This document shows positions 2,350 to 40,058 of a DNA stretch of 64,000 nucleotides, piece by piece. Source of the DNA: Ktedonobacteraceae bacterium (lineage in GTDB: Bacteria > Chloroflexota > Ktedonobacteria > Ktedonobacterales > Ktedonobacteraceae); the NCBI GenBank assembly GCA_050695155.1, contig JBOGTO010000180.1, positions 1-64,000 on the forward strand. The letters run 5' to 3'. The notes beneath the pieces are model-generated. The model had not been told where the DNA came from. It ran no database searches and saw only the letters and a list, made by a program, of their open reading frames with translations. Within the stretch, counting starts at the first letter, position 1; the number at the start of each line of letters is the position of its first letter. Made by a program: the position numbers and the translations under genes.

Positions 2350-2685
2350 CTATGAATTATCCTCTAAAACAGCTTGAATTTTAACTGCCAGATCAGGAAT
2401 GCCAACTGTGGCTGTTTCCCAGACTATGTCCAGGTCGATCCCGTCATAATGATGAATCAGTTTGTTGCGCATATTAATCATGGATCGCCAGGGTATCTCT
2501 GGATGGAGATTTCTGAATTCTAGCGGTAAGGCGCTGGCGGCTTCACCCATAATTTGAAGATAGTAGACAATCGAATTTTGTGTCTCTTCCTCCCGATCGA
2601 ATCGGCGGCGTCCTCTTTTTGTATATTTACCGATTTTCGTAATAGCTGTCTGAATATGTTGGATTCTTTCAAGCGAATCTGTCAT
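2350..2685 (-). CDS. hepT: HepT-family (DUF86) toxin of a HepT/MntA type II TA pair
   Basis: 111 aa. Contains the R-x4-H-x-Y motif (RNKLIHHY). Its start overlaps the stop of the upstream nucleotidyltransferase ORF by 4 bp. Confidence 0.75.
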
Positions 2686-3404
2686 AGAGGTATTGCCTCT
2701 TTCAAAACGCGCTCTCGAATACGATTATGCAGTCCTTTTTCGGTTACTATATCTACATCGTGACCAAGCAGTTCCTGGAGATCAAATAAGAGTTCGCTAA
2801 GGTCAAACAGGGTTCTTCCAGGCTCAACATCCACTAATAGATCAATGTCGCTGGCTGTATCAGCCTCTCCACGCGCAACAGAACCAAAAATACGCACATT
2901 CGACACGCCATACTTGATCGCAGTGCGAAGTATCTCGTCACGCTTTGCCTTTAATAACTCAGCATAAGGTTTTGCCATCTCACCCCTGAGAAAAGTTTGC
3001 TCGGCGTTACTTCGACTAAACTGTTCCTGGGCTGCCCCTAAAACTGCATCTATTTTATCTTGTAAATTTGGAAGGTCATGCTTCACTATGTTCCATAAAG
3101 CATCTGTATCAATTTCAAGATAATAATGCGTAATTAAGCTTTGAAAGTCAGCTAATTGCTTCCAGGGTATTTCTGGGTGATGATCCTTGAAATTCTGAGG
3201 AATTGTATTTGTGGCTTCACTGATTGTTTGAAGGTAATAGATGGCTGAAAGTTGAACCTCTTCTTCAGTTTCAAACCGTTGTTTACCCTTTTTCGCGTAC
3301 TCAGTGATTCTTATAATGGCGTTTTGTATGCGACGTAGCTGCTCGGTTGAGTCTCTCATTGCTAGAAGTCTCCAAATCAGTGACACGTGTTCCTCCGCTC
3401 TCAA
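2682..3404 (-). CDS. mntA: Single ORF combining an N-terminal HepT-like DUF86 domain with a C-terminal MntA-type minimal nucleotidyltransferase. The probable HepT-domain start is Met at 3359; an internal Met at 2978 could initiate a stand-alone MntA.
   Basis: The C-terminal ~98 aa carry the NTase signature [19 protein letters not shown]. The N-terminal ~125 aa are a clear paralog of the downstream HepT ([15 protein letters not shown] vs [15 protein letters not shown]) but read FQSLITHYY in place of R-x4-H-x-Y. There is no stop between the two domains. Confidence 0.6.
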
Positions 3405-9465: not shown

Positions 9466-10860
9466 ATGGCATGGCAGCGCAGTCAGCGTAGTCTTCGTTT
9501 TCCTGATGGCTTTTTGTGGGGAACGGCATCCTCTTCCCATCAATGTGAGGGTGGCAACACCAACAATCAGTGGTATCGCTGGGAGCAGGCGGGGCGTGTG
9601 TTTACGGGCGAGACAAGCGGGGATGCCGCGAACTGGTGGCGGGAGGCTGAGCAGGATTTCAGCCTGGCGGAACAGATGGAGAACAATGCTCTGCGCCTGA
9701 GCATCGAATGGAGCCGCGTCGAGCCGTCCGAGGGGTATTGGGATAGCGCGGCCATTGATCGCTATCGCATGATGCTGACCGACCTGCATAGACGGCATAT
9801 GAAACCCCTGGTCACGCTGCACCACTTCACCGACCCTCTGTGGTTCGCGGATCGCGGCGGCTTTACGAAGGTCGAGAATATACGCTACTTTGCGCGCTAT
9901 GTATCCTATGTGGTGGAGAAACTGCAAGACCTGTGCGACTTCTGGATTACCATTAACGAGCCAAATGTATATGCCATGCTGGGTTACTTATTAGATGAGT
10001 ATCCTCCGGGCGAGCAAGATTTGATGCGAGCCTTGCAAGTATTGCGCAATCTGATGCAGGCGCACGTTGAAGCTTTCTATGCCATCTATCGTATCCAGCC
10101 GCAGGCCGAGATTGGCTATTGCCTGAATTACCGCCTCTTTGACTCTGCCAGCCCGCTTTCACCACTGGACCGCGCAGTCGCGGGAATACAGGATACGTTC
10201 TTCAACTGGGCGACACTGCGAGGCGCGGAAACGGGAACATTCACCTTCCCATTAAACTTGCTGCTCGCGCCCATCAAACGCGCGGCGGGGGCGCGCGATT
10301 TTCACGGCGTCAACTACTACACGCGCGATCTGGTGCGTTTCGACCTCACACGGCCTACCGAAATATTCGGGCGGCGTTTCACCCTTCCTGGCGCGGTTCG
10401 CAACGATCCGGGTATGAAGAACAACTTTGGCGAGATTTACCCGGCTGGCCTCTATCGCGTACTCAAGTCGGTCTATCAAAAAACGCGCGGCAATAAGCCC
10501 CTGTACGTCACCGAAAATGGATTTAGCGATACGCTCGATGATCGTCGTCCGCGCGCCATCCTGGAACACCTGGCGATGATACACCGCGCCATCAGCGAAG
10601 GTATCCCCGTGCGCGGCTATCTACACTGGACGCTGGTGGACAATTTCGAGTGGACAGAGGGCTGGGGTGTGCGCTTTGGTCTGATAGAACTCGACCAGCA
10701 GACCCAGGAACGCACGCCGCGCATCAGCGCCAGCATGTTCGGCGAAATCTGCCGCGCCAACGCTATCACCGAAACAATCGTCGCCCGTTATGCGCCAGAT
10801 GCGATGGAGAGCATTTTTGGAACGAGTATCAATGCGGTTGGTCAAGCCTCAGTTACATAA
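9466..10860 (+). CDS. Glycoside hydrolase family 1 beta-glucosidase
   Basis: FPDGFLWGTASSSHQCEGG N-terminal signature; acid/base TINEPN and nucleophile YVTENG motifs. ATG at 9466 with a GAGGAG RBS is preferred over the TTG at 9457. Confidence 0.85.
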   Translation: MAWQRSQRSLRFPDGFLWGTASSSHQCEGGNTNNQWYRWEQAGRVFTGETSGDAANWWREAEQDFSLAEQMENNALRLSIEWSRVEPSEGYWDSAAIDRYRMMLTDLHRRHMKPLVTLHHFTDPLWFADRGGFTKVENIRYFARYVSYVVEKLQDLCDFWITINEPNVYAMLGYLLDEYPPGEQDLMRALQVLRNLMQAHVEAFYAIYRIQPQAEIGYCLNYRLFDSASPLSPLDRAVAGIQDTFFNWATLRGAETGTFTFPLNLLLAPIKRAAGARDFHGVNYYTRDLVRFDLTRPTEIFGRRFTLPGAVRNDPGMKNNFGEIYPAGLYRVLKSVYQKTRGNKPLYVTENGFSDTLDDRRPRAILEHLAMIHRAISEGIPVRGYLHWTLVDNFEWTEGWGVRFGLIELDQQTQERTPRISASMFGEICRANAITETIVARYAPDAMESIFGTSINAVGQASVT

Positions 10861-12748
10861 ACTGCCATAGTTTGATGGAATGATCTTCGCCGCCAGTGGC
10901 AAGTATGCGTAACTCTGGTCGCGCAGCCATGGCGGTCACGCGGCCTTGATGTGCTTGAATTAAGAGATGTTGTTGGTTGTGTTTAGTATTCCAGCAGTAA
11001 AGTATCCCACTTTTATCTGAATAAACAATCTCGTTTTTCAATGCGATCGCATTGCCAGCGGGCATAGGTAGCTGAGTAGGAAGTGGTAAATGGATACCAG
11101 AATTCAGATTGAGCAAGATCAAATCCCCTTTTTTGGTCAAACAAAGCAGGTGTTGTGCGTCGAAAACCAGTAACTTTACGATTTGACCAGCATCTTCTAT
11201 TTGCGTTTTCCAAACCAGTTGTCCGTTTTTAAGGTTCCATAAACCTACCAACCCATTATCCGCTCCTGCTGCGAGCATGTCACTCTCTGAAAGATAGAGG
11301 AGCGACCAGACTGGCCCGCCAGGATGTCGTATGCTCCGTATTTGACGACCACCCGGCAATTCCCAGATACGTATTGTCCCGTCGCGCGAACCAGATAGCA
11401 GAACCCTATCATTCATTGCCAGGGTAATAGTAAGAATGATGTCGCTGTGTCCGATTATAGTACGTTGTAGACGCCTTTGTTCTATATTCCACAAACGGAT
11501 ACTTCGATCCCAGGAACCTGTAGCCAGGGTCTTACCATCAAAGGTGATAGCTGAGGCCCAAATCGTGCGCGTGTGTCCTGGCACCTCAACTATGGCCTGT
11601 GGCGTTCCTGGTTTCCAGAGAGAAATGGTGCCGAGAGCACTCGAGATAACTTGACTGACATCAGGTAAAAGAGCAATGGTATCAACTGCGGTGAAGAGAT
11701 TTTTCCACTCTGTGAGCAAACGGAGCGTTCCAGACCCTGGATGTGCGGAGGTTTTTTTATCGATGTTGGCTGTAGTATATACGGACATACCCGGCAACGT
11801 CTCAGTTTGCAGAACAGGCCCTGTCCTTATAAATTCCTGTTCCTCGTTGTAATGCGCTGGCAGGGTCGGCATTTGAGTTGGGGAAACTGATGTTGGTTCT
11901 TTAGACCATTCTATTGTCGTGGCGCGCGTTGATTGTACTATTGCTTGCTTTGCTGCTTCCGCGAATTCTCGCGCCGTTGTGAAACGTTGAGAGGGTTCTT
12001 TGGCGAGCGCGCGTTGAATAACAGGTTCTAATGCTTCCGGGGCATTTGCATTGTATTCTTTGATTGGCCTGGGCCTCTCTTGCAAGTGCTGGAGCATTAT
12101 ACTTCCCCAGCCATCACCAGTAAAAGGCGGCGTGCCTGCTACTATCTCATAAAACATAATACCCAGCGCGTAAATATCAGTCTGTGCGCAAATATTTTGA
12201 CCCAGCCACTGTTCCGGTGCCATATATAATGGAGTGCCTACATAACCGTGAGTAGATTGTGCTGTATTGTTTATTAACTTCGCAACACCAAAATCGGCAA
12301 GCAAGGGCCAATTGTTCTCACGAAGAAGCACATTGGCAGGCTTAATATCACGATGAATAATAGATCGTTGATGCGCGAAATCCAGGGCTGACGCCAGTTG
12401 TTCCAGAAGGTTTATTGTTTCCGCCAGCGACCATGTGCCGCTTTTCAGGCGCTCTTTCAGAGTACCACCTGCTATATAAGGCATAACAAGATAGGCAATC
12501 TCATCCTGATAGCCGTATTCATATAATGTCACAATATGAGGATGTTCTAATGCTGCAAGCGCCTGTGCCTCTTGTTTAAAACGCTGAATAAAATTCGGAT
12601 CTTCATCATATCCTGTCTGAATGACCTTAACTGCCACCTTACGGTTCAATAAAGGTTGAATTGCCAGATAAATTTCGCCCATGGCTCCCTTACTAATGAA
12701 CTGTATCAGTTCACAAGAACCAAGAGTACGATGAAGGAGATTCGACAC
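10853..12748 (-). CDS. Ser/Thr protein kinase with C-terminal WD40 repeats
   Basis: VAVKVI Lys, HRDIKPANVLL catalytic loop, DFGVAKL, APE motif. The C-terminal ~300 aa carry WD repeats (GHSDIIL...SGSRDGTIRIWEL; HSIKLWQF). Confidence 0.85.
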   Translation of the reverse strand: MSNLLHRTLGSCELIQFISKGAMGEIYLAIQPLLNRKVAVKVIQTGYDEDPNFIQRFKQEAQALAALEHPHIVTLYEYGYQDEIAYLVMPYIAGGTLKERLKSGTWSLAETINLLEQLASALDFAHQRSIIHRDIKPANVLLRENNWPLLADFGVAKLINNTAQSTHGYVGTPLYMAPEQWLGQNICAQTDIYALGIMFYEIVAGTPPFTGDGWGSIMLQHLQERPRPIKEYNANAPEALEPVIQRALAKEPSQRFTTAREFAEAAKQAIVQSTRATTIEWSKEPTSVSPTQMPTLPAHYNEEQEFIRTGPVLQTETLPGMSVYTTANIDKKTSAHPGSGTLRLLTEWKNLFTAVDTIALLPDVSQVISSALGTISLWKPGTPQAIVEVPGHTRTIWASAITFDGKTLATGSWDRSIRLWNIEQRRLQRTIIGHSDIILTITLAMNDRVLLSGSRDGTIRIWELPGGRQIRSIRHPGGPVWSLLYLSESDMLAAGADNGLVGLWNLKNGQLVWKTQIEDAGQIVKLLVFDAQHLLCLTKKGDLILLNLNSGIHLPLPTQLPMPAGNAIALKNEIVYSDKSGILYCWNTKHNQQHLLIQAHQGRVTAMAARPELRILATGGEDHSIKLWQFM

Positions 12749-12819
12749 AATTGACCTCTCAACTCTATCTTGTGTATATTAGTAATAGAACGAATGATAG
12801 TACAAAATTAATAAATGTG

Positions 12820-12848
12820 TTGACTTATATTGTGTTCGATGTTACAAT
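12820..12848 (+). promoter_or_regulatory. Putative sigma70 promoter with -35 TTGACT, a 17-nt spacer and -10 TACAAT, upstream of the DUF4126-like gene
   Basis: ttgacttatattgtgttcgatgttacaat sits about 50 bp upstream of the ATG at 12901, in an AT-rich divergent intergenic region. Confidence 0.3.
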
Positions 12849-12900
12849 CGCTATGCTTCGATTTTAGATAGTTGTTTTAGTATGAAAGCCTGGTAGTGCG

Positions 12901-13980
12901 ATGGAAAGTCTTGGAACTTCGTATGGTTTAGCCCTTGCAGCAGGCATTAATGCCTATTTACCGCTTCTTTCTATCTCCATCTCTGTGCGCTGGTTTCATT
13001 TGTTTACTATCAGTAAAAACTTTGCATTTCTTACCCAGAATGGATTTATCATTGCTCTCGTTATTCTGGCTGTTATCGACATTGTAGCAGACAAGATACC
13101 ATTTGTCGATAGCATTTGGGATAGTATTCATACTATAGTGCGTCCAATTTCCGGGGCCATAGTTGCAGGCGCAACGGGCGAAAGTAGTACTTCTCTTGGA
13201 TTGCCGGTAGTTCTCCTACTTGGAGCCACATTAGCGTCGATGAGCCATATTACAAAGGCTGTGACACGTTTGAGCGCCTCTGTCTCGGCCGGAGGCTGTT
13301 TAACACTGGCTTTGAGTCTTGTAGAGGATGTTGTAGTCATTGTCGCAATTCTGCTTGCACTCTTTGCCCCTGTCATTATGCTGGCGTTTTCGGCAATCTT
13401 TATTGTCCTTTTTGTGATATTTGCCCCTTTGCTATTTAGCGCATTACGTTACCGGTTACGTGTTGCTGCTTCAACCTTTTCCTGGTTTATCCATTCCTAC
13501 TTCTGGCGCGGTTCAGAGTCTAGTTCTCTGGACTTTATGCTCGATCTGTCAGATGCCGAGAGGTCCCAGTTGCTCCAGATCATGCCACCCGAAACTGCGT
13601 TATTGGGAGGCGCTCGCGTACAGTGGATCAGGCGGCTAGATGGGCGAGGATTATGGGGACGGCGGCGCGTTGCGCTTTCTACCTGGTTTATTGTTTCCGA
13701 AGGCGCTGTTATCATTCTCTGTGGAACGCGCCCCCATTTATCTCAGGTTGTGTTTTTCAACGATGTGCAGGCCCTGGCCCTCGATCAAGGATTATTAATG
13801 GGTTCTTTGCGGCTCCTCACCTTGAAAGGGCAGGCCATAAACTTTGCGATTTTGCGTGACTCTTTAGGTGATGCAATCGAATTAGTAGAAGTTCTACATA
13901 CGCGCCATCATCTTCCCTCTAATGCAACGACTCGCACAGGCTCTATACGCACTCGCTCTGTAGGGCCGCAACGTATTTAG
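12901..13980 (+). CDS. Polytopic membrane protein with a DUF4126-like N-terminus and a C-terminal region resembling a bacterial PH (bPH_2/DUF304-like) domain
   Basis: GLALAAGINAYLPLL start followed by 4-5 hydrophobic helices. The C-terminal soluble region LLGGARVQWIRRLDGRGLWGRRRVALSTWFIVSEGAVIIL is PH-like. Confidence 0.55.
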   Translation: MESLGTSYGLALAAGINAYLPLLSISISVRWFHLFTISKNFAFLTQNGFIIALVILAVIDIVADKIPFVDSIWDSIHTIVRPISGAIVAGATGESSTSLGLPVVLLLGATLASMSHITKAVTRLSASVSAGGCLTLALSLVEDVVVIVAILLALFAPVIMLAFSAIFIVLFVIFAPLLFSALRYRLRVAASTFSWFIHSYFWRGSESSSLDFMLDLSDAERSQLLQIMPPETALLGGARVQWIRRLDGRGLWGRRRVALSTWFIVSEGAVIILCGTRPHLSQVVFFNDVQALALDQGLLMGSLRLLTLKGQAINFAILRDSLGDAIELVEVLHTRHHLPSNATTRTGSIRTRSVGPQRI

Positions 13981-14010
13981 ATACATTTTTATTTTTCCTA
14001 ATATTTCCTA

Positions 14011-15012
14011 TTGGAAAGGAGTTTGGAGTTGAGCGGATTTTTTGACAAAGTAAAGCATACGACCGGTCTTGGCTTAAATCAAGATGAACTCTACAATCGG
14101 GCATTCGCTAAAGGAGTGTTGCTTGGGAACTTCAAGGATGCGGCTGATATCTTTGAGAAAGCTGCCAGGAAGTTTACAGAGACTGGCGACCAGATGATGA
14201 TGGCCCAGGCGACGGCCAACTCCTTGCTGTATCGTTATCTGGCAACCGGTGATGACAGGATGATTCAACAGTTGATCCAGGCGTTGAGTGTCCTACCTCA
14301 GATTGAGGAGATCAAATCGCAAACAGAGACGATGCCGGTCGCGCCACTTTGCGCTGAACTGGATTGCCGCATGGTCGAAACTGCCATCAAACAGGCGCAG
14401 GATAACATGGTAAAATTGCGTGATCTGCACAGGTATGCGCGAGATAAGTTTCAAGCGATTCTACGCAATCAACTACTGACCTACAGTTATGTACCCGAAC
14501 CCGATGGACATAATGAGAAAACAGAGGCGCGCTATTTCTATCATAGTGGAATGTCCTCTTTCTGTGAAGCGATGATAAAAAAAGATAGCGACCCTGCCGC
14601 AGCCTCTGATGATCTCGCGTTAGCGGGGCAATCCTTCCGGCGTTGCAATGATCAAAAATGGATGCAGAGCGCCGCAACGTTGTTGGAAAACTGGCGAGTT
14701 TCAAGAACGTGCTGGATGTGCCATAGGGAAATGCAGGGATTTGAGCTGCACTTTTCAATGTGCCAGGCTACTGTCACCCCCTACACAAAATATATTCTCG
14801 ATCGCTTAAAACAAGATGGCTCTTCTGTCAATCTGGAGAGTGGCGAAATCGCTGTCTGTACGCCTTGCGGGTCAATGGTAACAATAAAGGCGGAAATGGA
14901 AGCAGACAAGGTCCGGCAGGAATTGGGTGCCAAAATAGATGTACTGATTGGCGCGATGCAGTCACTCGAAAATCGGGTTCGTCATCTTGAGCGCAATTCT
15001 CATCACCATTAA
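14011..15012 (+). CDS. Conserved hypothetical protein with a C-terminal Cys4 zinc-ribbon-like motif (CWMC...C...CTPC)
   Basis: 333 aa. No known catalytic motif. Sits 30 bp downstream of the membrane gene and 17 bp upstream of the next gene. Confidence 0.5.
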   Translation: MERSLELSGFFDKVKHTTGLGLNQDELYNRAFAKGVLLGNFKDAADIFEKAARKFTETGDQMMMAQATANSLLYRYLATGDDRMIQQLIQALSVLPQIEEIKSQTETMPVAPLCAELDCRMVETAIKQAQDNMVKLRDLHRYARDKFQAILRNQLLTYSYVPEPDGHNEKTEARYFYHSGMSSFCEAMIKKDSDPAAASDDLALAGQSFRRCNDQKWMQSAATLLENWRVSRTCWMCHREMQGFELHFSMCQATVTPYTKYILDRLKQDGSSVNLESGEIAVCTPCGSMVTIKAEMEADKVRQELGAKIDVLIGAMQSLENRVRHLERNSHHH

Positions 15013-15029
15013 AGGAGAGCGTATCCTGT

Positions 15030-16898
15030 ATGGAAAAACAAGATATTCTCGATATTCTGGATTCGCTCGATTTACAGATATCGATGGGGAAAATTGATCA
15101 GGCGACCTATAATGACCTTAGACAGAAGTGGGTACAGAAGCTGCAAGTATTGGAAGCTAGTGTTGCTGCTGGTGCTACAGGGTCTCTTGCCGGTTCGTCT
15201 GGTAGATCAACATCAGGTCAATTTGCTGGATTCTCATCGTCGGCCCCACCATCGCCACCGGCAATTGAGGTGCTGGCTTGTCCGATGTGCGCTGCTCCAG
15301 CAGATATACATGGTATACAGGACCTGACCAGGCCCATAGAGTGTCCTCACTGCTGTACTGTTTATACATTTCGTCAGAGCCAGGATAATGCTCAACATCT
15401 CAAACAGGAGTTAAAGGCCTGGCTCGATCAAATGATCGTGGGGAGCGGCTATAATGGCGCTGGCGGTTCCAGCAGTATTGACGCCAATGCCCGGCGCTTC
15501 ATCTTTACCGAGAGCCTTTATCCTGCGCTAAAAAAAGATATCGACCGGCATCTGGAAGACCTTGAATATGCCCCGGAAGCTCCGATGGTCCAGCTAAAAG
15601 TGTTAGTAGGGTTCGAGGAATACCAGCCAGGCTCACAACTTTTAGCTATTGGCAGAGGAGAGAACCAATGGCTGAAGACGCTCACCACGCGGGTCTCCGC
15701 GCCGCAGTTGCAGGACTTTGCTGTAACACAAGATGACAAACTGAAAATGCTTCAACTTCAGTTCCGCGTCATGAGCTTAATCTATTACGCTAATATCGCT
15801 AATCACCTTACCGCTGCTACGGTTGCCTCCTATCAGGCGATACATCAGAACCTCCAAGCTCTGCAAAAAGACTATCGAGAACATGCACAAAATGTTGTAG
15901 ACGAGGGTTATCGCTCTTACATTGTGGCCCTGGATGCGCGTATCACCGGCGCAATGCTTCTGCTTGATCTGCTGATTGCAACATTTGAGAAAGGAAGAGG
16001 CGTAGCTCCTGAAGCTGTTCTCGCCCAGCTTGATCGTGCGATAGCGCAACTCACCCAGTCAGAGCAACAGGCTTTAGCATGTATGTATAATCCACTTTAT
16101 ACGGTTCCTCTACAGCAAGGTATACAAAAAGACCTCATGGTTGCGCGTATTTTCCAGGCGATAATCAAATGCTACGAGGTAGCCACTCGCTTACAGTCGG
16201 TAGACTTTGAGCCGTTCTATGAAGATTTGATGAGCTATGCCGCAACGCTTGGAAGCAATCAAACTACCCACCAGTTACTTGGTCTTATTCAATCCATCAG
16301 TCGTTTGCTGTCCGCTCGCGCTGGAGATGAACCTCTCCCCGTTCTTGTCGACTGGAGCTGGATTGAAGGGACGATTGAGGCTAATCGATATAAGCCTACC
16401 TTTGGCGCTGCCGAAACCGTTGGGACTGTAGGTTATCATTTTCATCCTTACTGGGTGGCAACGCTGAATTATGCTGAGAAAAGTGGCATCATTTTCAAGT
16501 CGGGAACTGGGCGTGAAGCGCTTATTCTTGTGGATGCTACTACCACGAATTCACCCATTGTTGGGCATATACTGGTCAGCGATCCTCTTTTGCCAGTGAT
16601 CCAGCAAGCGACCCACACCTTCAATTTCCTGGATAAACGAGTGATGGCACTTCCCGCCTTACTCTCACAAGATATGGCAGAAAGAACGATGAAATCCTAC
16701 GCGAACCAGCACACGCGTGAGTTGGGAGCGACGATTGTCAAAATGATTGGCCTGCTCTATCTTCCAACGGCCTTTGTGCGTTATGCCGGTAAGAATGGAA
16801 GCCGTGAGATGGTGATAGGCCGTTTGAATTTTGTGAATAAAAATTTGACAGGCGCACTGTTGCAAACGCAACAGTTCTTGCAAAAATATGGAGCTTAA
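15030..16898 (+). CDS. Conserved hypothetical 622-aa protein with an N-terminal SHOCT-like helix, a low-complexity linker, a zinc ribbon (CPMCAAP...CPHC) and a large uncharacterised C-terminal domain
   Basis: N-terminus ILDILDSLDLQISMGKIDQATYNDLRQKW resembles the SHOCT consensus. Four Cys in a C-x2-C-x20-C-x2-C arrangement. Confidence 0.55.
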   Translation: MEKQDILDILDSLDLQISMGKIDQATYNDLRQKWVQKLQVLEASVAAGATGSLAGSSGRSTSGQFAGFSSSAPPSPPAIEVLACPMCAAPADIHGIQDLTRPIECPHCCTVYTFRQSQDNAQHLKQELKAWLDQMIVGSGYNGAGGSSSIDANARRFIFTESLYPALKKDIDRHLEDLEYAPEAPMVQLKVLVGFEEYQPGSQLLAIGRGENQWLKTLTTRVSAPQLQDFAVTQDDKLKMLQLQFRVMSLIYYANIANHLTAATVASYQAIHQNLQALQKDYREHAQNVVDEGYRSYIVALDARITGAMLLLDLLIATFEKGRGVAPEAVLAQLDRAIAQLTQSEQQALACMYNPLYTVPLQQGIQKDLMVARIFQAIIKCYEVATRLQSVDFEPFYEDLMSYAATLGSNQTTHQLLGLIQSISRLLSARAGDEPLPVLVDWSWIEGTIEANRYKPTFGAAETVGTVGYHFHPYWVATLNYAEKSGIIFKSGTGREALILVDATTTNSPIVGHILVSDPLLPVIQQATHTFNFLDKRVMALPALLSQDMAERTMKSYANQHTRELGATIVKMIGLLYLPTAFVRYAGKNGSREMVIGRLNFVNKNLTGALLQTQQFLQKYGA

Positions 16899-16918
16899 TG
16901 CTCTAAGGGAGGTATATC

Positions 16919-18304
16919 ATGGGGTTATTGCACTTTCTAGCCGATCGTGGCATCAAAATGATGGACAATACGGAGAAGGATCTGAAAGCTATCGGGCAGA
17001 GGTTAGGCTACATGCCTCTATCCTGGCGACAGGTCATTATGACTCATCCCGATAAAGATGGATTGCTGTGGCGTCTTCCTGATCCCCAGGTTCCGATGGC
17101 TAGCTCCTTGAGTCGCATACAATCGATACTAGTTTCTGAATATGAGCGAGCGATCGTACTCAAGGATGGTATGTTGACTGAGCAGGTAGTTCTCCCGCCT
17201 GGCCTTTATGATATTAGTCGCACTGTCAACGTGCGCGGCCAGATTGAAATCATCTGGACGACTACCAGTGAATTTCAGTTGCGCTGGGGCATTCCCGATG
17301 TTATCACTGGCGACCGTGTAAGCGTGGGCGCAAGCGGTTTCTTCAGCGCGGCTATTATTGATCCCGAAACTTTTTTACGCAATGTTGGAAGTAGTCAGCA
17401 GGTCTTCAAGAAGGAAAACATGGCTACCTTTGCCAAACCAGAAGTAGATTCGCTGTTGCGTGAACTCATTGCTCATAAAACCGTGATGGAATTTCAGCTT
17501 GCTCGACAAGAATTTATCGGTGCTGCGCGAGAGGCTCTCCAGCCCATTTTTGAGCGCTGGGGTCTGGAATTCCGTGGTCTGACCATTGAAAACCAGAGGA
17601 TTCCGGAAAAATTCCGTGAAGCCGCAGAACGGCGCACGATTGTGAGTATGGAGAAGGAAGCGCAAATCGTGGCGGCCACAGAAGATGTGAACCTGGCGCA
17701 ATTGGAAGCGCAGAAACAATACTACTTATCTCAAGCTGATGCCAGCAAGTACTATATCACTGGAAGTGCGGAAGTCGAGAACATGCGTCGTCAACTGAGT
17801 ATTGGATTGGACCCTCTCAAGCTGAAGATGGCAGCAGCAATGGAAATTCTTGCAGCCACACCGAGCGAAGGCTCATTGGTGGATGGCCGCGTTCAGGTGA
17901 TGAACTACCTTTCCGGGTCCCTCAATACCGTCACTGGCGGTGTACCCCCAACTTCTGCTGACACTGCAAATGCTGCTTTAGGACAACCAATTGGCCTTCC
18001 TGCCCCAGCAACCGCCGGTGGGGTGTCTGGACGCGGCCCTAATACAGGGCTTTCGTCAGATTCTGCTAACACCGGTGGATTCGCCCCTTTCATCCCTCCC
18101 GATGCTTCAAATCCGTTAGGTACAGGCGCTTTAGCTGCGCAAGTTTCGCTATCTCAGCCAACAACAACCGGGGGTATGACTCGTGAAAAAATTAAGGAGA
18201 TGCTTGATAAACTTGATGAACGCCTTATCGCGGGAGAAATAACCGAACAGAAGCATTCGGAGCTTTATGATAGGCTACAAAAAAAGCTGAGTGAGTTGCC
18301 ATAG
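16919..18304 (+). CDS. SPFH/band-7 domain protein with a Pro/Gly-rich linker and a C-terminal SHOCT-like motif
   Basis: Core collinear with the HflK/C-stomatin SPFH domain (EYERAIVLKDG..., WGLEFRGLTIENQRIPEKFREAAERR...EKEAQI). C-terminus GEITEQKHSELYDRLQKKL is SHOCT-like. Confidence 0.6.
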   Translation: MGLLHFLADRGIKMMDNTEKDLKAIGQRLGYMPLSWRQVIMTHPDKDGLLWRLPDPQVPMASSLSRIQSILVSEYERAIVLKDGMLTEQVVLPPGLYDISRTVNVRGQIEIIWTTTSEFQLRWGIPDVITGDRVSVGASGFFSAAIIDPETFLRNVGSSQQVFKKENMATFAKPEVDSLLRELIAHKTVMEFQLARQEFIGAAREALQPIFERWGLEFRGLTIENQRIPEKFREAAERRTIVSMEKEAQIVAATEDVNLAQLEAQKQYYLSQADASKYYITGSAEVENMRRQLSIGLDPLKLKMAAAMEILAATPSEGSLVDGRVQVMNYLSGSLNTVTGGVPPTSADTANAALGQPIGLPAPATAGGVSGRGPNTGLSSDSANTGGFAPFIPPDASNPLGTGALAAQVSLSQPTTTGGMTREKIKEMLDKLDERLIAGEITEQKHSELYDRLQKKLSELP

Positions 18305-18424
18305 TTCGATTTGAGCGGACTGCGAATGGCTCATGAGGTGTAATAAATACGGAATCTCCGGTTATTCGCACAAATGAGAATCCATAAACGCAAGTTGGAG
18401 AAGCGAATACTTCTCCAACTTGCT

Positions 18425-18670
18425 CTATTGTTCATCGCTCTGTTCCCGCAACACCGCTTGAAGTATCAAGCGATCGGGGCAATGCTCTGGGAATCTTCGC
18501 GCGTAACACACCATGCAGTACTCGCCTACTAATTCATCATCGTCGCCTGTGCCATAATAAGTGATGGTGTGCGGCGGACAGGCGTAATGCCCGCAAGGGC
18601 GCAGTTCGGCTACCTCGGCATGTGGCAGCCTGTGCGGGTATTGTTCGATATAACAGGTTGGTTCGGTCAT
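18425..18670 (-). CDS. Small Cys/His-rich hypothetical protein (81 aa)
   Basis: Motifs CGHYACPPH and CMVCYARRFPEHC suggest metal binding. Isolated ORF in an AT-rich intergenic zone. Confidence 0.3.
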   Translation of the reverse strand: MTEPTCYIEQYPHRLPHAEVAELRPCGHYACPPHTITYYGTGDDDELVGEYCMVCYARRFPEHCPDRLILQAVLREQSDEQ

Positions 18671-18857
18671 GTTGCTTTACTCATTCTCTGATCTTGTAGT
18701 AAGTAGTATCAGGTTCCATACTTGATAACTCATGTGCATGATATTCCTCACAATAAGAGGTGTCAAGGAAAATTTCATCCTTTAATTACCGTATATCATT
18801 GGCTACGCTAGATGTAATCATTTCCTGACAATGGAAGTATTACCAGGTTCACCTTTA

Positions 18858-20384
18858 TCAAGGCTCAATACACGAGCCATGTGTAGATTTCAGTTGTAGA
18901 TACGGGGTGATTCGCCATCTACCCTGGATTTGCTGGGCTATGAAGTATCCAGCATAAGCATTAATAGCTGTTCCTGGGCCGGATGGTTTGTCTTCAATGG
19001 CGTTAATAGTAATAATTACTTGTACTGTGCCATCAGAAAGCGGTGTAGTTGGACCGAAGTTTGTGCAAGAGTAATGAACATGTTGATAATTTGACCGCTG
19101 ATAGGCATAGCCTTTTTGATAAGTCGGGCTAAGTAAATTATAGGCTGAAAGGTATGCGCCTTTGTTCCAGTTCTCATAATACTCTTGAACTGTCGCCTGG
19201 GCCTGTTGAGGTAGTGTTAATGTGGGCGTGGGTGTTACAGTGGATTGAGAGGATGAAAATAGTGTAGGAGCGTAAGTAACTCCAAAAACAATGAGTGTTA
19301 TGGCAAGTAGCGTGATAATGAGCGCCCACACAAAAAATTTCGCTGAAGGCCGGACTATTTCGTGACCAATACCGGGCATACCAACTTGACCAGCTAGAGC
19401 GGTAGGAGAGATTGCTGTACCTTGAGGAGAGAAAGATAATGGTAGAAAGGATAGGTCTACTTCGGTGGGAGCATTGTTATTGTAAGGTTCAACTGCGCGG
19501 GATAGTGCTGTTGCTAACTCCTTGACCGACATGAATCGGTCTTCACGATTCTTAGCAGTTGCCTTTCTCAGCACGCTATCTACGGTACCTGGAATATGTG
19601 GATGCAATGAGTGTAGCGATGGCAGATCATTATTGAAATGCTGATCCATGATAGCATAAAAATCTGAACCTGTGAAAGGAATCGTCCCATGTAGCATTTC
19701 ATATATGACGATCCCCATAGCATAAATATCAGCTCGGGGATCAGCTTTTTTGCCTCGTAATATTTCAGGAGCCATATATTCGGGAGTGCCGATAACTTTG
19801 TTTGTTGTTGTCAATGTAGCCCAGTTGGGGTTTCCAGTCGAGCGCGCAATACCAAAATCTGTTAATATCAGGCAATGGTTGTCGTCCACTAAAAAATTGC
19901 CTGGTTTGATGTCTCGATGAGTTATGTTTTGAGAATGAGCGCAGTCAAGCGCAGGAGCAATTTGCTCAATATATCGAGCTGTGTCTTGAAGTGATATTCG
20001 ACCTTGTTGTCTGATTAAATCCCCTAAAGTCCCGTTTGAATAAAAAGGCATGACGAGATAAGCTAATTCCTGGTATTCAGAGTAAGCAAGGATTGGTACA
20101 ATGTAAGAATGTCTAAGATTTGCAATAAAATAAGCTTCTCGCTGAAAACGAATAAGATATTTCCTGTATTCCCTGCTGCCGGATCTGATGTTTGGAAATA
20201 ATACCTTGACTGCAACTGCGCGTTCTGTTACTAGCTCTTTTCCGTAGTATACTGCGCTCATGTGCGTTTCTCGGATAAGACTTTGAATCGTGTAATTCCC
20301 AAGTCCTTTGTTTATAAGTTCTGACCAGTCTCCAAGCATAGAACTAGCTCTCCTTACAAAGGCAGTCTGTATATCGCTCCCCAA
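18858..20384 (-). CDS. Membrane-anchored Ser/Thr protein kinase with an extracellular C-terminal domain
   Basis: VAVKVL, HRDIKPGNFLV, DFGIAR, TPEYMAPE, then a TM helix (WALIITLLAITLIVFGV), then a ~150-aa C-terminal domain. Confidence 0.8.
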   Translation of the reverse strand: MGSDIQTAFVRRASSMLGDWSELINKGLGNYTIQSLIRETHMSAVYYGKELVTERAVAVKVLFPNIRSGSREYRKYLIRFQREAYFIANLRHSYIVPILAYSEYQELAYLVMPFYSNGTLGDLIRQQGRISLQDTARYIEQIAPALDCAHSQNITHRDIKPGNFLVDDNHCLILTDFGIARSTGNPNWATLTTTNKVIGTPEYMAPEILRGKKADPRADIYAMGIVIYEMLHGTIPFTGSDFYAIMDQHFNNDLPSLHSLHPHIPGTVDSVLRKATAKNREDRFMSVKELATALSRAVEPYNNNAPTEVDLSFLPLSFSPQGTAISPTALAGQVGMPGIGHEIVRPSAKFFVWALIITLLAITLIVFGVTYAPTLFSSSQSTVTPTPTLTLPQQAQATVQEYYENWNKGAYLSAYNLLSPTYQKGYAYQRSNYQHVHYSCTNFGPTTPLSDGTVQVIITINAIEDKPSGPGTAINAYAGYFIAQQIQGRWRITPYLQLKSTHGSCIEP

Positions 20385-20600
20385 ATAATATTACGATACT
20401 TTATGATTGATGTACAGGGTAAAACCCGGCGGTGGACTCCAAAATCAAGTTGTTAGCTGAAAGGTGGGTAATAGACAAGCTCGCTTTCTGATATGCTTAA
20501 TGCGCTTGTCATACATGGCCTGACGTGCTACACTTCTATATAAGGACAGGGCAGACAAGCGCTTTTGTCTTTCATTTTATTGCAGTGCGAGGTTGGTTGT

Positions 20601-21602
20601 ATGAGTAAGGCAACACGTATTTCCGAAATGGCTAAATTTCATTTTGGCAACACCATATTTTGCTCCGATGGCGAGGGCGGTACCCTGGAGAACGTCACGT
20701 TTGAGGCCGGGACGCGCCGCATGGCGTATCTTGGCGCGAAGCAGGGGCGTTTCTTTAGCAAGATGGGATATTTGCCCTTTGAGAGCGTGATAAGGGCGAC
20801 TGGCGATGGCGTGACGGTCAGGGCAGCGCGTGCCGAATTGGCCGCTGCCAGCCATGCGCCGTCGGAGGGAGTCTTTTTCGATAACAAAAGCGCCGTCGAG
20901 CGCGCTGGCTCCTCTACTAAAGGCACCTTGAGATTGGTTGCGACGCAACCGGAGAGCGGTGAACTGGCTTATATCGTAGCGCGTAACTTGCGCGCGGGGC
21001 AGGATACCCTTTTGCGAGCGGAATATGTTGCCAGTATGGAGAAAGATCGTATCACCGTAAGCATCTCCGATGATGCGCTGAATGCGCTTCCCCCGTACCG
21101 TTCTGATGCTGACTTGCAACAGGAAGTCGAGTCTATTTTGTTTGATCTCGCTCCTATGCATATAGACCTCAAGGGCATGACCATTCGCGTACTGGATAGT
21201 GTACTCTATCTTGATGGCAATATCTCGAGTTCACTACGTTCGGATATGGCGCAAGACCAGGTTCTGGGCGTGGAGGGTCTGTTAGAGATCAAAAACAACC
21301 TGGTTGGCGATGACCGGCTTGCGGCAGATTTGGCGCGCGCGCTTGGACAGGACCCCCGCACGCGCGATCTCCCCATTGGCGTCTATCCGAAACTTGGCGT
21401 GGTGCGACTGAGCGGGGCCGTGCATACCGTCCAGCAGAAAGCCGCCGCGGAAGAGATTGCTCGCAAGTTTCCGGGTGTGCGCTCAGTAGATAATACCCTG
21501 ATCGTTGATCCGACCTCGAATATGCTGCATGTCATGTCCGCGCCAGAGGGTGGCGAAGCGCAAGATAAAATTCCCGGCAAATATATCCGGCATACGCAAT
21601 AA
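20601..21602 (+). CDS. PRC-barrel-like plus two BON domains protein
   Basis: The C-terminal half has two BON-like units (MTIRVLDSVLYLDGNISS...VEGLLEIKNNLV, and VVRLSGAVHTVQQKAAAEEIARKFPGVRSVDNTLIV). The N-terminal half resembles PRC barrels. Start chosen at MSKATR (20601). Confidence 0.55.
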   Translation: MSKATRISEMAKFHFGNTIFCSDGEGGTLENVTFEAGTRRMAYLGAKQGRFFSKMGYLPFESVIRATGDGVTVRAARAELAAASHAPSEGVFFDNKSAVERAGSSTKGTLRLVATQPESGELAYIVARNLRAGQDTLLRAEYVASMEKDRITVSISDDALNALPPYRSDADLQQEVESILFDLAPMHIDLKGMTIRVLDSVLYLDGNISSSLRSDMAQDQVLGVEGLLEIKNNLVGDDRLAADLARALGQDPRTRDLPIGVYPKLGVVRLSGAVHTVQQKAAAEEIARKFPGVRSVDNTLIVDPTSNMLHVMSAPEGGEAQDKIPGKYIRHTQ

Positions 21603-21604
21603 TT

Positions 21605-23122
21605 ATGGAACCCACAAAGCAGGAAGAACCTGTTGAAGCAGGCGTGAGCGAACCACCAGCACAACATGAAGACGCGCCAGTGTTAGCGACTCTTACGCCC
21701 GAAGTGCCTTTACCACCAGCGCCAAAATCTACATACGAGGGAGTACAATACGCTATGCCCATGCAACGCCGGGAGATCGCTGCGCAGGCCATCAAAGAAC
21801 TGTGGCAGGAAATGCAGATTGCTGATGAGGCCCCGCTCATCTTTGCTTCGCCCGTCCAACGTCGCATACAATTGGAGCATCATCCTTTGTTGCTCAACCG
21901 CGTCACATCCAACGGCAAATCGCGCAAGAAGGCCAACGTAGAACCATTAAAATCCTGGGAAGCGCTGGATGCTCCTACTTATGCTCAGGGTATCGCGGCC
22001 AGTGGCGAGGTAAATACCCTGCTCAAGGCGGATATGTTCCGCTCCGCCGTTGTTGGCGAGCGTGGCACCATCCCGTCCGCACCCTATGGCTGGATTTGCT
22101 ATACCTTCGCTGCTGGCTGGAAAGCGCTTTCCGTCTACTACTACGACTCCGATAACAGCGAATCGCATACCTTCAACGCTGTTCCCCCTGGACATCAGGA
22201 TGAGTGGCTGGCCTTTCTCAAGCTACTGGACGAAACCCACGAGGATATCTGGCGACAGCAGAGGCGCGGCACCGTCGAGATTGTGGGCGGAGATGACGAC
22301 CTGGCGGAGGTGATCAAAAAATCCTCGTATGACGACCTCGTCTTGCTGCCTGCGACCCAGGCGCATATCACAGCCCAGCGTCATATTTTCGATAAAGATG
22401 TGCTTGATCGTTATGCCGCGCTGCGCATTCCTCGCCTGCGCAAGGTGCTTTTGATTGGCCCTCCTGGAACCGGCAAAACGACCATACTCAAAGCGGAGGG
22501 CGCGTATCACGCGCAGCAGGGCGGGCTGGTATTTTATGTATGTACCCCCACGCGCAATAGCAGCGCCTGGGGACAGCTTGCCTATGCTCTGCGACTGGCC
22601 GGAGAAAGTCGTCTTCCAACGCTGATCCTGGTCGAAGATTTTGAAATGTTTGTCACCAATCCACCAGACATGCAATCAGCGCTGAATATGCTCGACGGCG
22701 TAGGAACGCCCGATAATCCGGCGGGAACCCTGCTGCTCGCCACCAGCAACGAACCCGAAAAGATCGACCAGCGCATTCGTGACCGTACCGGGCGTATCGA
22801 TGTATTGATTGAAATTGGTCTGGTAGAGGATAGTGATTTGGCGCGGCGGATGCTGGCGCATTTCCTGGGAGACGCTTACCGCGAGGAAGAACATGCCCCG
22901 GTCGCGCCGAATCTGCTCAAGCATCCCGGCAGTCATTTCCGTGAAGTGTGCCTCGCCGCCCTCATGCGCGCCTTGCAGGATGGGCGCAAAGACGTTACCG
23001 CCGAGGATTTGCTCTGGGCGCACGAAGCTATTCTGATGGGTCAGGCCAGCGCAGAAGAATCCGAACGCTTCACCCCAACTACGACGCGCAGGCGCGGCAG
23101 CTACTTTGGCAAAAACCAGTGA
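21605..23122 (+). CDS. AAA+ ATPase with a unique ~270-aa N-terminal domain
   Basis: Walker A LLIGPPGTGKTT, Walker B LILVEDFE, sensor region TSNEP and arginine-finger region. Separated by 2 bp from the BON gene, so probably the same operon. Confidence 0.75.
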   Translation: MEPTKQEEPVEAGVSEPPAQHEDAPVLATLTPEVPLPPAPKSTYEGVQYAMPMQRREIAAQAIKELWQEMQIADEAPLIFASPVQRRIQLEHHPLLLNRVTSNGKSRKKANVEPLKSWEALDAPTYAQGIAASGEVNTLLKADMFRSAVVGERGTIPSAPYGWICYTFAAGWKALSVYYYDSDNSESHTFNAVPPGHQDEWLAFLKLLDETHEDIWRQQRRGTVEIVGGDDDLAEVIKKSSYDDLVLLPATQAHITAQRHIFDKDVLDRYAALRIPRLRKVLLIGPPGTGKTTILKAEGAYHAQQGGLVFYVCTPTRNSSAWGQLAYALRLAGESRLPTLILVEDFEMFVTNPPDMQSALNMLDGVGTPDNPAGTLLLATSNEPEKIDQRIRDRTGRIDVLIEIGLVEDSDLARRMLAHFLGDAYREEEHAPVAPNLLKHPGSHFREVCLAALMRALQDGRKDVTAEDLLWAHEAILMGQASAEESERFTPTTTRRRGSYFGKNQ

Positions 23123-39805: not shown

Positions 39806-40058
39806 ACGACGCGCAATAGCAAATTAGGGTATCTAGTATTGACAGTATTGCATGTTTTTGACTACTATACTCTTGCGGGAACAATCTCTTCATCTACAAA
39901 GTGCATGAACCCGAGATGAACGGTGTCTCGGGGTTTGTTATTTATCACTCAAGGGTATCTTGAAAAATATTTGTTTGGTGTTCCGGTTTAAGCTGGCGTC
40001 ATAAGCAGCGTAGTTGTGCTGCTTGCCCTCATTACCGGGATGCAGAGAGAGGTACACC

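What the first reader, a model, noticed from the sequence alone, without database searches (positions are those of the whole stretch)
10853..20384. Lower-GC island: a four-gene conserved-hypothetical operon (DUF4126-like membrane protein, two Zn-ribbon proteins, SPFH/SHOCT-like protein) bracketed by two Ser/Thr kinases
Four co-directional genes at 12901-18304 are packed with 17-30-bp spacers, with a -35/-10 promoter candidate at 12820-12848. I cannot place any of them in a characterised pathway. The membrane protein is DUF4126-like with a PH-like tail. The 333-aa protein ends in a Cys4 ribbon. The 622-aa protein has a SHOCT-like helix at its N-terminus and a CxxC...CxxC ribbon. The last protein is an SPFH/band-7 scaffold ending in a SHOCT-like helix. 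Sharing SHOCT-like helices across two neighbouring proteins suggests they co-assemble, for example as a membrane-microdomain scaffold complex. The block lies between a WD40 Ser/Thr kinase (10853-12748, -) and a membrane Ser/Thr kinase (18858-20384, -), next to a tiny Cys/His-rich ORF. By eye the whole 9.5-kb stretch is AT-richer than the flanks, hinting at horizontal acquisition or a distinct regulon. This is my best candidate for an undescribed system in the window, possibly a kinase-controlled SPFH-based membrane, stress or defence module.
Basis: partly seen in the sequence, partly recalled or inferred. Interest (0 to 1): 0.7.

Follow-up and report, generated by a model that had tools for sequence, protein, structure and literature searches.

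The report
Conserved SPFH scaffold cassette, two novel partners
The four genes are a real operon whose core, two previously unclassified zinc-ribbon proteins followed by an anchor-less SPFH (stomatin/flotillin-type) protein, recurs in the same order in many bacterial phyla and some archaea, so it is probably an undescribed membrane-scaffold system; the two flanking kinases are not part of it.

Summary
ORFs, spacers, the promoter-like site and the low-GC stretch (0.468 vs 0.541) are all present.

The window is a Ktedonobacteraceae MAG. The conserved unit is three genes:
- A: 327 aa, alpha-solenoid, Cys4 ribbon, long helix.
- B: 622 aa, helix-Gly-helix motif, linker, Cys4 ribbon, alpha-solenoid, alpha/beta domain.
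- A TM-less Band_7/Band_7_1 SPFH protein with a disordered linker and the same helix-Gly-helix motif.

In 85 non-redundant loci, B follows A in 65 of 66 and SPFH follows B in 48 of 52. These span Chloroflexota, Myxococcota, Acidobacteriota, Spirochaetota, Krumholzibacteriia and Methanomicrobiales.

A fourth, integral-membrane gene varies. The DUF4126-plus-tail type seen here recurs in about four lineages, upstream or downstream. The kinases recur only in some Ktedonobacterial loci.

Best reading: a peripheral-membrane SPFH scaffold with two adaptors and an exchangeable anchor, analogous to B. subtilis YdjGHI. I found no published description.

The parts
12820..12848 (+). sigma-70-like promoter candidate (TTGACT-17-TACAAT, TG-extended) upstream of the operon
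   Evidence: Position fits the operon. Such sites are not enriched over shuffles, so this is weak evidence.
12901..13980 (+). Integral-membrane protein of 359 aa: DUF4126 domain (aa 6-174) plus a ~170-aa C-terminal tail. Variable or accessory membrane partner of the cassette.
   Evidence: Pfam 9e-38. Several hydrophobic segments. Homologs including the tail lie next to the cassette in L004/L022, L041 and L032 (upstream) and in L065/L067 (downstream); weak in L025/L026.
14029..15012 (+). Protein A, 327 aa (ORF opens at 14011; real start is TTG 14029 after AAGGAG). Conserved N-terminal peptide MSGFFDK..GLGL, TPR/Bro1-like alpha-solenoid (aa ~20-225), Cys4 zinc ribbon (nt 14710-14868), and a ~45-aa C-terminal helix ending in HHH.
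15030..16898 (+). Protein B, 622 aa. N-terminal helix-Gly-helix (SHOCT-like) motif (nt 15036-15170), disordered linker, Cys4 zinc ribbon (nt 15279-15353), alpha-solenoid (aa 114-431), and a C-terminal alpha/beta domain (aa 436-622) of unidentified fold.
16919..18304 (+). SPFH/Band-7 protein, 461 aa, no TM segment. N-terminal MGLLHF.. extension, SPFH domain (nt 17132-17683), coiled-coil region, ~100-aa low-complexity linker, and a C-terminal helix-Gly-helix SHOCT-like motif (nt 18179-18292).
   Evidence: Pfam Band_7 4.9e-18 and Band_7_1 1.6e-9. Nearest solved relatives are stomatins, E 2e-5. No TM. Motif.
18390..18423 (+). terminator-like hairpin (14-bp stem) closing the operon
18425..18670 (-). 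81-aa Cys/His-rich ORF, convergent with the operon. Probably a real small gene; membership of the system is doubtful.
   Evidence: 73% identical homolog in the same relative position in L019, also in L057. Absent from other loci.
10853..12748 (-). Ser/Thr kinase with a WD40 propeller, divergent from the operon. A neighbour, not a core component.
   Evidence: An ortholog is adjacent only in L004/L022/L045. Other kinases lie 3-8 kb away in some Ktedonobacterial loci and are absent from most distant loci.
18858..20384 (-). Membrane Ser/Thr kinase (one TM segment, extracytoplasmic tail). A neighbour, not a core component. Lowest GC of the island (0.43).

Best explanation
The locus encodes an undescribed, horizontally mobile SPFH scaffold system. 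Its invariant core is three cytoplasmic proteins made from one operon.

1. The SPFH protein is of the Band_7_1/YdjI type. It has no membrane anchor, a coiled-coil region and a long flexible tail.
2. A and B each combine a Cys4 zinc ribbon with a TPR/Bro1-like alpha-solenoid.

Inferred mechanism:
- The SPFH subunit oligomerises into a ring or cage on the cytoplasmic face of the membrane, as structurally solved SPFH proteins do.
- Because it lacks a TM segment, it is held there by the adjacent integral-membrane protein. Here that is the DUF4126-plus-tail protein. Elsewhere it is a Zn-ribbon/2-TM protein or a small 4-TM protein.
- A and B act as adaptors or regulators. They use their solenoid grooves to bind short helical or peptide elements: the helix-Gly-helix SHOCT-like module on its flexible linker, and the conserved N-terminal MGLF-type peptides of A and SPFH. 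In this way they assemble, cap or recruit clients to the scaffold.
- The likely physiological role is local membrane organisation or envelope-stress protection, by analogy with B. subtilis YdjI/YdjG/YdjH.

Shown: gene linkage, domain architectures, absence of TM segments, motif distribution.
Inferred: oligomerisation, anchoring by the membrane partner, A/B as adaptors, the stress role.
For: Gene order A-B-SPFH on one strand is kept down to 20-37% identity. B follows A in 65 of 66 loci and SPFH follows B in 48 of 52. The genomes range from 33 to 73% GC and come from at least six phyla plus Methanomicrobiales. Everything else in the neighbourhood varies.

A, B and SPFH have no TM segment; the adjacent gene does. 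A co-directional multi-TM gene abuts the cassette in many loci and falls into three recurrent families: DUF4126-like, ZnR-2TM and 4-TM.

The helix-Gly-helix motif sits on B, on SPFH, or on both, depending on the clade, and is present in every complete cassette. This is a Rosetta-stone-like sign that B and SPFH work in one complex.

The ZnR plus following helix of A and B are the only similar stretch between them.

SPFH passes the Band_7 and Band_7_1 cut-offs. In the low-GC and archaeal clade it is Band_7_1 (5e-51) plus double zinc ribbons, which is the YdjI architecture.

[quoted passage not shown] SHOCT is most often fused to PF13421 (PMC3581485). SHOCT-like modules are predicted to be inner-leaflet anchors (PMC11237479).

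A and B have no conserved catalytic-type residues or enzyme-family hits.

The solenoid folds are confidently modelled (pLDDT 90 and 83).
Against: No experiment and no complex prediction was possible, so every protein-protein contact is inferred.

Several complete loci show no adjacent membrane gene (L006, L007, L027, L028). Anchoring may therefore be intrinsic, through N-terminal amphipathic peptides or the SHOCT-like module, or supplied in trans.

Some 'membrane neighbours', such as an aquaporin or Yip1, may be coincidental.

No PspA/Vipp1 homolog lies within +/-10 kb in any of 113 loci, so the YdjI analogy does not extend to a hard-wired PspA link.

The C-terminal domain of B is unidentified and could carry an activity I cannot see.
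Confidence: 0.55

Rival explanations
1. A prokaryotic Bro1-like/ESCRT-III (PspA/Vipp1) recruitment module. A and B are true homologs or functional equivalents of eukaryotic Bro1 domains. They dock the C-terminal helix of an ESCRT-III-superfamily protein encoded elsewhere onto the SPFH platform for membrane repair or remodelling.

For: YdjI-type SPFH recruits PspA in B. subtilis (PMC8581546). SPFH is contextually linked to archaeal ESCRT loci (PMC10936438). One distant locus has two dynamin-like GTPases just upstream.
Confidence: 0.15
2. An anti-phage or conflict system. A and B sense an invader, and the SPFH scaffold with the exchangeable membrane protein acts as a membrane-disrupting effector (abortive infection).
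For: Distribution is patchy and cross-domain, with clear horizontal transfer: cassette GC is 0.10-0.15 below the flanks in the archaeal loci. The window shows a compositional island. The membrane 'effector-like' partner is exchangeable. Some loci lie near STAND/TIR, NB-ARC, restriction-modification or Tn7-like genes. The system is enriched in multicellular or complex bacteria (Ktedonobacteria, Myxococcota).
Against: A, B, SPFH and DUF4126 give no PADLOC hit. There are no copies in viral contigs or plasmids. Most flanks are housekeeping genes. There is no nuclease, NTPase or toxin domain. In most genomes cassette GC equals flank GC, which suggests long residence.
Confidence: 0.15
3. One reading: a Ser/Thr-kinase-controlled module in which the two flanking kinases phosphorylate the scaffold proteins.
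For: Both strong kinases of the 64-kb window flank the operon. The WD40 kinase ortholog is again divergent and adjacent in L004/L022/L045. Kinases lie within 3-8 kb in several other Ktedonobacterial loci and in L027, L092 and L104. The SPFH linker is Ser/Thr/Pro-rich.
Against: Kinases are absent from most loci, including many Ktedonobacterial ones (L006, L015, L017-L021). Most of the kinase-bearing loci share one syntenic block, so they count as few independent events. Ktedonobacteria are kinase-rich (background knowledge).
Confidence: 0.1

Closest known systems
Bacillus subtilis pspA-ydjGHI module (YdjI SPFH protein with membrane proteins YdjG and YdjH)
   Same: The SPFH protein is of the Band_7_1 type, has no TM anchor, and carries a low-complexity region plus a small C-terminal module. 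In the low-GC and archaeal relatives that module is a zinc ribbon. The operon also contains zinc-ribbon proteins and an integral-membrane partner needed, or here presumed needed, for membrane recruitment.
   Different: No pspA in the operon or within 10 kb. A and B are soluble. They have no TPM domain, and there is no evidence for an NTF2/YpeB-like domain. They show no Pfam similarity to YdjG or YdjH. The membrane partner is DUF4126 or another family.
Eukaryotic Bro1 domains (Bro1, ALIX, HD-PTP, BROX)
   Same: Best structural matches of the alpha-solenoids of both A and B. Like Bro1, these are non-enzymatic adaptors in a membrane-associated context.
   Different: No sequence similarity. The solenoid of A covers only about 200 of ~360 Bro1 residues. 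A and B carry zinc ribbons and other extra domains. There is no linked ESCRT-III or Vps4 gene.
Classical SPFH operons (stomatin/QmcA-NfeD, HflK/C-FtsH, FloA/FloT-NfeD)
   Same: An SPFH scaffold is encoded next to a dedicated membrane partner. The nearest solved relatives of the SPFH domain are stomatins.
   Different: The SPFH protein lacks the N-terminal TM or hairpin. There is no NfeD or protease partner. Two extra obligatory soluble subunits are present.
Archaeal 'Meth_adaptin' ESCRT loci (Makarova et al. 2024, PMC10936438)
   Same: They contain an SPFH protein with coiled coil and zinc ribbon, plus Zn-ribbon-bearing adaptor-like proteins. The cassette studied here also occurs in methanogen MAGs.
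   Different: Those loci are built around Vps4 and ESCRT-III and have adaptin-appendage (Ig plus TBP) proteins. None of these lie next to the cassette in L035/L036. I could not compare the proteins directly.

Membership tests
SPFH / Band 7 superfamily (Pfam PF01145, PF13421) | Sequence match to the SPFH domain above the curated threshold | tested here: met
   Band_7 66.2 bits (cut-off 23.6); Band_7_1 38.2 bits (cut-off 24). Relatives reach Band_7_1 5e-51.
SPFH / Band 7 superfamily (Pfam PF01145, PF13421) | Homo-oligomeric ring or cage on a membrane | not testable with these tools
   Inferred only from solved relatives: the stomatin entries list 16 or more chains, and the HflK/C 24-mer is cited in PMC10936438.
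PspA-YdjGHI-type module | [quoted passage not shown] | tested here: met
PspA-YdjGHI-type module | pspA (ESCRT-III superfamily) gene in the operon or neighbourhood | tested here: not met
   phmmer with E. coli PspA found no hit at E<=1e-3 in ORFs of 113 loci, +/-10 kb. Ten further window proteins of 232-428 aa outside the island were scanned and none hit a PspA family.
PspA-YdjGHI-type module | YdjG-like (2 ZnR + NTF2-like + TM) and YdjH-like (TPM domain, TM) partners | tested here: not met
   A and B have one ZnR each, no TM and no TPM hit. The fold of B's C-terminal domain is unidentified.
Bro1 domain (Pfam PF03097) | Bro1-type alpha-solenoid fold | tested here: inconclusive
Bro1 domain (Pfam PF03097) | Detectable sequence or profile homology to Bro1 | tested here: not met
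   No BRO1 hit in Pfam at E<=10 for 10 A and 28 B sequences. No Bro1 chain in the PDB profile searches at E<=10.
Bro1 domain (Pfam PF03097) | Binding of the C-terminal helix of an ESCRT-III protein | not testable with these tools
SHOCT domain (Pfam PF09851) and SHOCT-like DUF1707 | Sequence match above threshold; short bihelical module at a protein terminus | tested here: inconclusive
   Sub-threshold only: SHOCT E 0.042 (window SPFH) and 0.0045 (L007 SPFH); DUF1707 0.013; GvpG C-terminus 0.016 to 3.6e-4. The helix-Gly-helix pattern and terminal position are conserved.
DUF4126 (PF13548) | Sequence match above threshold; multi-pass membrane protein | tested here: met
   130.2 bits against a cut-off of 27.5. 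Several hydrophobic segments.
Known anti-phage defence systems (PADLOC-DB v2) | Match of the system's proteins to a defence-system model | tested here: not met
   No hit for DUF4126, B or SPFH. Only noise for A (E >= 0.005, CARF/HEPN models). The kinases hit generic kinase models (PD-T4-6, mad6) through the kinase domain alone.
SPFH-NfeD operons | NfeD-family membrane partner adjacent to the SPFH gene | tested here: not met
   No NfeD hit in the window proteins or in ten sampled membrane neighbours.

The most novel reading that the evidence does not exclude
A and B are the first prokaryotic Bro1-domain relatives. The cassette would then be an ancient adaptor platform, spread across bacteria and archaea, that couples an SPFH scaffold to ESCRT-III-superfamily (PspA/Vipp1/CdvB) polymers. 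That would make it a prokaryotic forerunner of the eukaryotic Bro1/ALIX-ESCRT-III connection, which published surveys could not find even in Asgard archaea (PMC10936438).
Probability: 0.12. Interest if true: 0.9.

Novelty: new variant of a known kind. Interest (0 to 1): 0.62.

Why it matters
SPFH proteins are universal, but their mechanisms are poorly understood. Each new obligatory partner set gives a handle on what the scaffold does.

This cassette supplies two unclassified protein families (no Pfam, NCBIfam or PDB relatives) locked to a TM-less SPFH protein across at least six bacterial phyla and methanogenic archaea. It also has an exchangeable membrane anchor and a mobile helix-Gly-helix module. 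That gives the widespread but functionless SHOCT-like and DUF4126 families a concrete, testable context.

If the Bro1-like resemblance reflects function, it would extend the SPFH/ESCRT-III connection seen in B. subtilis and in archaeal ESCRT loci, and would bear on the origin of eukaryotic ESCRT adaptors.

Tried and rejected
- Pfam, NCBIfam and PADLOC on all island proteins. A and B gave nothing. The PADLOC kinase hits were rejected as generic kinase-domain matches.
- PDB sequence searches with profiles of A and B: nothing meaningful.
- Relaxed Pfam scans of 10 A and 28 B sequences: only zinc-ribbon noise.
- hhalign of A against B: no homology except the ZnR-plus-helix stretch, E 0.017.
- A third word-indexed homolog search with the diverse B alignment was wasted. 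It returned only close relatives.
- The search for related loci with the diverse B alignment failed for lack of a conserved stretch. The A alignment worked instead.
- AFDB Foldseek was unavailable. PDB Foldseek for B gave no significant hit and did not identify the C-terminal domain.
- Viral contigs and plasmids: no copies.
- A PspA search around all loci was negative.
- tRNA and flanking-repeat searches for island borders were negative.
- The idea that the downstream ZnR-2TM protein of other Ktedonobacterial loci has a counterpart elsewhere in the window was rejected.
- The BON-plus-AAA pair downstream (20565-23122) was considered as a Vps4-like partner and rejected. It is not conserved next to the cassette and its N-terminal half has no family hit.
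- Literature searches for a prior description (SHOCT/SPFH/zinc ribbon, Bro1 with PspA, Bro1-like with prokaryotes, DUF4126, SPFH gene neighbourhoods) found none.
Full report
**1. Checking the observation**

The ORFs are at the stated coordinates.

| Coordinates | Strand | Pfam result |
|---|---|---|
| 10853-12748 | - | Pkinase + WD40 |
| 12901-13980 | + | DUF4126, 9e-38, aa 6-174 of 359 |
| 14011-15012 | + | none (333 aa) |
| 15030-16898 | + | none (622 aa) |
| 16919-18304 | + | Band_7 4.9e-18; Band_7_1 1.6e-9; both above curated cut-offs |
| 18858-20384 | - | Pkinase |

NCBIfam and PADLOC add nothing for the four operon proteins. A hydropathy scan finds TM-like segments only in the DUF4126 protein and the second kinase. 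The 333-aa protein, the 622-aa protein and the SPFH protein are therefore cytoplasmic.

The 333-aa ORF really starts at TTG 14029, seven bases after AAGGAG. That gives 327 aa, matching all homologs and the public annotation.

A TTGACT-17-TACAAT site lies at 12820-12848 and a 14-bp-stem hairpin at 18390-18423. Promoter-like sites as a class are not enriched over shuffles.

The GC dip is real. GC is 0.468 for 10853-20384 against 0.541 for the rest. GC3 is 0.35-0.52 against about 0.6. The two kinases contribute the lowest values. No tRNA or flanking repeats mark the borders.

**2. What is conserved**

The 622-aa protein (B) is 100% identical to a hypothetical protein of a Ktedonobacteraceae MAG. 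It has about 77 close homologs, all Ktedonobacteraceae where named.

An exhaustive profile search of 1.84 billion cluster representatives found only 143 relatives (71 at E<=1e-30). Many of them lack the N-terminal helix motif. The 327-aa protein (A) has a similar family.

Neighbourhoods of B homologs show the same three genes in the same order: a ~325-aa gene, B, then Band_7. This holds in Ktedonobacterial contigs. It also holds around B relatives of only ~20-25% identity from contigs of 68%, 62% and 34% GC. The upstream genes in those loci match the A profile at 1e-70 to 1e-103.

Scans with an A alignment retrieved 26 genomic loci. They come from:
- Ktedonobacteraceae and other Chloroflexia, and Dehalococcoidia;
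- Archangium, Polyangiaceae and other Myxococcota;
- Thermoanaerobaculia, Terracidiphilus and other Acidobacteriota;
- Spirochaetaceae and Krumholzibacteriia;
- two Methanomicrobiales archaea.

A further 73 metagenomic loci were also retrieved.

Pooling 85 non-redundant loci, B follows A in 65 of 66 loci with enough downstream sequence. SPFH follows B in 48 of 52. Clustering of all neighbours shows nothing else is universal. Flanks are unrelated housekeeping genes.

The cassette is absent from viral contigs and plasmids. In most genomes its GC equals that of the flanks. In the archaeal loci it is 0.10-0.15 lower, which indicates transfer.

**3. The fourth gene and the kinases**

A co-directional multi-TM gene abuts the cassette in many loci, but its family changes.
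- DUF4126-plus-tail. Found in the window and its close relatives, and in a Dehalococcoidia MAG (32% identity over 335 aa, directly upstream of A). In a different clade (L065/L067) it lies downstream of SPFH. Weak DUF4126-like proteins lie downstream in Thermoanaerobaculia and Myxococcales loci.
- A Zn-ribbon/PQ-linker/2-TM protein, found in eight other Ktedonobacterial loci. It has no counterpart in the window.
- A ~250-aa 4-TM protein, found in the low-GC and archaeal clade.

The kinases are different. The WD40 kinase is adjacent again only in the nearest relatives (L004/L022/L045). Other kinases lie 3-8 kb away in a set of loci that share one syntenic block. Most loci have none.

**4. Anatomy of the proteins**

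*Protein A* (AF2 pLDDT 90.3) has four parts:
- a conserved, poorly ordered N-terminal peptide, M(S/G)GLFDK..TGLGL;
- an eleven-helix TPR-like solenoid;
- an invariant Cys4 ribbon, with motifs RTCWxCxRExQG and CxxCGS;
- a ~45-residue helix.

*Protein B* (pLDDT 83.3) has five parts:
- a helix-Gly-helix hairpin;
- a disordered linker;
- an invariant Cys4 ribbon;
- a large helical solenoid (aa 114-431);
- an alpha/beta domain (aa 436-622) that I could not identify.

A and B are not detectably homologous, apart from the second ribbon knuckle plus the following helix. Conserved polar residues do not form a recognisable catalytic motif.

*The SPFH protein* has five parts:
- a conserved N-terminal MGL..(W/F) extension;
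- the SPFH domain;
- a coiled-coil region;
- a ~100-residue low-complexity linker;
- a C-terminal helix-Gly-helix element.

*The helix-Gly-helix motif.* The motif LDxLDxxLxxGxI(T/S/D)xxx(Y/H) scores below threshold against SHOCT, DUF1707 and the GvpG C-terminus. Its distribution is informative:
- In Ktedonobacteria, both B and SPFH carry it.
- In the high-GC clade, only SPFH carries it.
- In the low-GC and archaeal clade, only B carries it. There the SPFH ends in double zinc ribbons, exactly the YdjI architecture.
- Every complete cassette has at least one copy.

A module that migrates between two subunits yet is never lost argues that B and SPFH act in one complex. It also argues that one copy per complex is enough.

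**5. Structural leads**

- For B, the top hits are BROX (11.2, 221 aligned), Bro1 (10.7), Naa35 (10.6), ALIX (10.2) and HD-PTP (9.9).

Foldseek gives no significant hit for B, but BROX entries carry the highest probabilities, 0.72-0.96. No sequence-level signal exists.

I therefore treat 'Bro1-like' as a fold-level resemblance that suggests a peptide- or helix-binding adaptor. It is not evidence of family membership.

The literature held here contains no report of bacterial Bro1-like proteins. Makarova et al. state that Bro1/Alix orthologs were not identifiable even in Asgard archaea (PMC10936438).

**6. How it most likely works**

Shown: the operon, the conserved triad, the cytoplasmic nature of A, B and SPFH, the variable membrane partner, and the mobile motif.

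Inferred:
- The SPFH protein oligomerises on the inner face of the membrane, as solved SPFH proteins do.
- It is anchored through the adjacent membrane protein and/or the SHOCT-like module. Ravi et al. predict that module to be an inner-leaflet anchor (PMC11237479).
- A and B are non-enzymatic adaptors. Their solenoid grooves would bind the flexible helical or peptide elements of the system or of clients.

The closest experimentally studied analog is B. subtilis YdjI. [quoted passage not shown] It needs the membrane proteins YdjG and YdjH, and it recruits PspA (PMC8581546).

The analogy fails on one defining point. No PspA homolog lies within 10 kb of any of 113 loci, and A and B are unrelated to YdjG and YdjH.

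I put about 0.55 on the scaffold-adaptor-anchor model, and about 0.15 on a specific ESCRT-III/PspA link. A defence role gets about 0.15: distribution is patchy and the membrane partner is exchangeable, but there is no defence-model hit and the flanks are mostly housekeeping. Kinase control gets about 0.1.

**7. Novelty and verdict**

The SPFH-plus-partner theme is known. This particular system is not described in any resource or paper I could search. That covers the two new families, the strict A-B-SPFH order across bacteria and archaea, the interchangeable membrane partner and the migrating SHOCT-like module. It is best filed as a new variant of a known kind.

Its interpretation is right in spirit (an undescribed SPFH membrane module). 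It is wrong in making the kinases part of the system, and unproven on defence.

Noticed in passing
window 2350-3404 (-): A second small low-GC patch (GC 0.42-0.43, GC3 0.37-0.40). The 240-aa ORF at 2682-3404 hits both HepT-like RNase and MNT nucleotidyltransferase, which looks like a HepT/MNT toxin-antitoxin unit. The 111-aa ORF at 2350-2685 was not scanned.
   Followed up: partly
window 18425-18670 (-): The 81-aa Cys/His-rich ORF is probably a real gene. A 73%-identical copy lies in the same position, downstream of SPFH on the opposite strand, in another Ktedonobacteraceae contig (L019 5787-6008) and in L057. Function unknown; absent from other loci.
   Followed up: partly
window 20565-23122 (+): A PRC-barrel(weak)/BON protein and a 505-aa AAA+ ATPase with an unassigned 250-aa N-terminal half are separated by only 2 bases (stop at 21602, start at 21605), so they may be translationally coupled. 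They are not conserved next to the cassette elsewhere.
   Followed up: partly
window 26156-32374 (-): A single 2072-aa ORF, the largest in the window. Not examined.
   Followed up: no
L035 9025-13991 and L036 2894-7900: The cassette plus the 4-TM gene occurs in two Methanomicrobiales MAGs with GC 0.10-0.15 below the flanks. The proteins are nearly identical to those of a Dehalococcoidia and a Spirochaetaceae MAG, which looks like recent inter-domain transfer (or MAG contamination).
   Followed up: partly
L013 542-6275: In one high-GC locus, two dynamin-like GTPases, an FGE-sulfatase-domain protein and an M48 peptidase lie directly upstream of the cassette on the same strand. This is a membrane-remodelling context seen only once.
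   Followed up: no
L015, L031, L038: Cassette copies in long-read Chloroflexia MAGs are split by frameshifts in A, B or SPFH. These are either pseudogenes or assembly errors. One genome (contig CAVZQK010000001) carries two copies, L020 intact and L038 broken.
   Followed up: no
P0024, P0028 (B homologs, alignment A1 columns ~100-150): Some Ktedonobacterial B proteins carry an inserted second CxxC...CxxC ribbon in the disordered linker, giving 673-674 aa.
   Followed up: no
L027: A MAG labelled 'uncultured Rickettsiales' has 69% GC at this locus and carries the high-GC-clade cassette. The taxonomic label looks unreliable.
   Followed up: no
window 40014-41987 (+): A 658-aa ORF with only weak similarity to the kinase domains (E ~1e-6). 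It also begins with a Zn-ribbon-like CxxC...CxxC motif picked up by tblastn. Not characterised.
   Followed up: no
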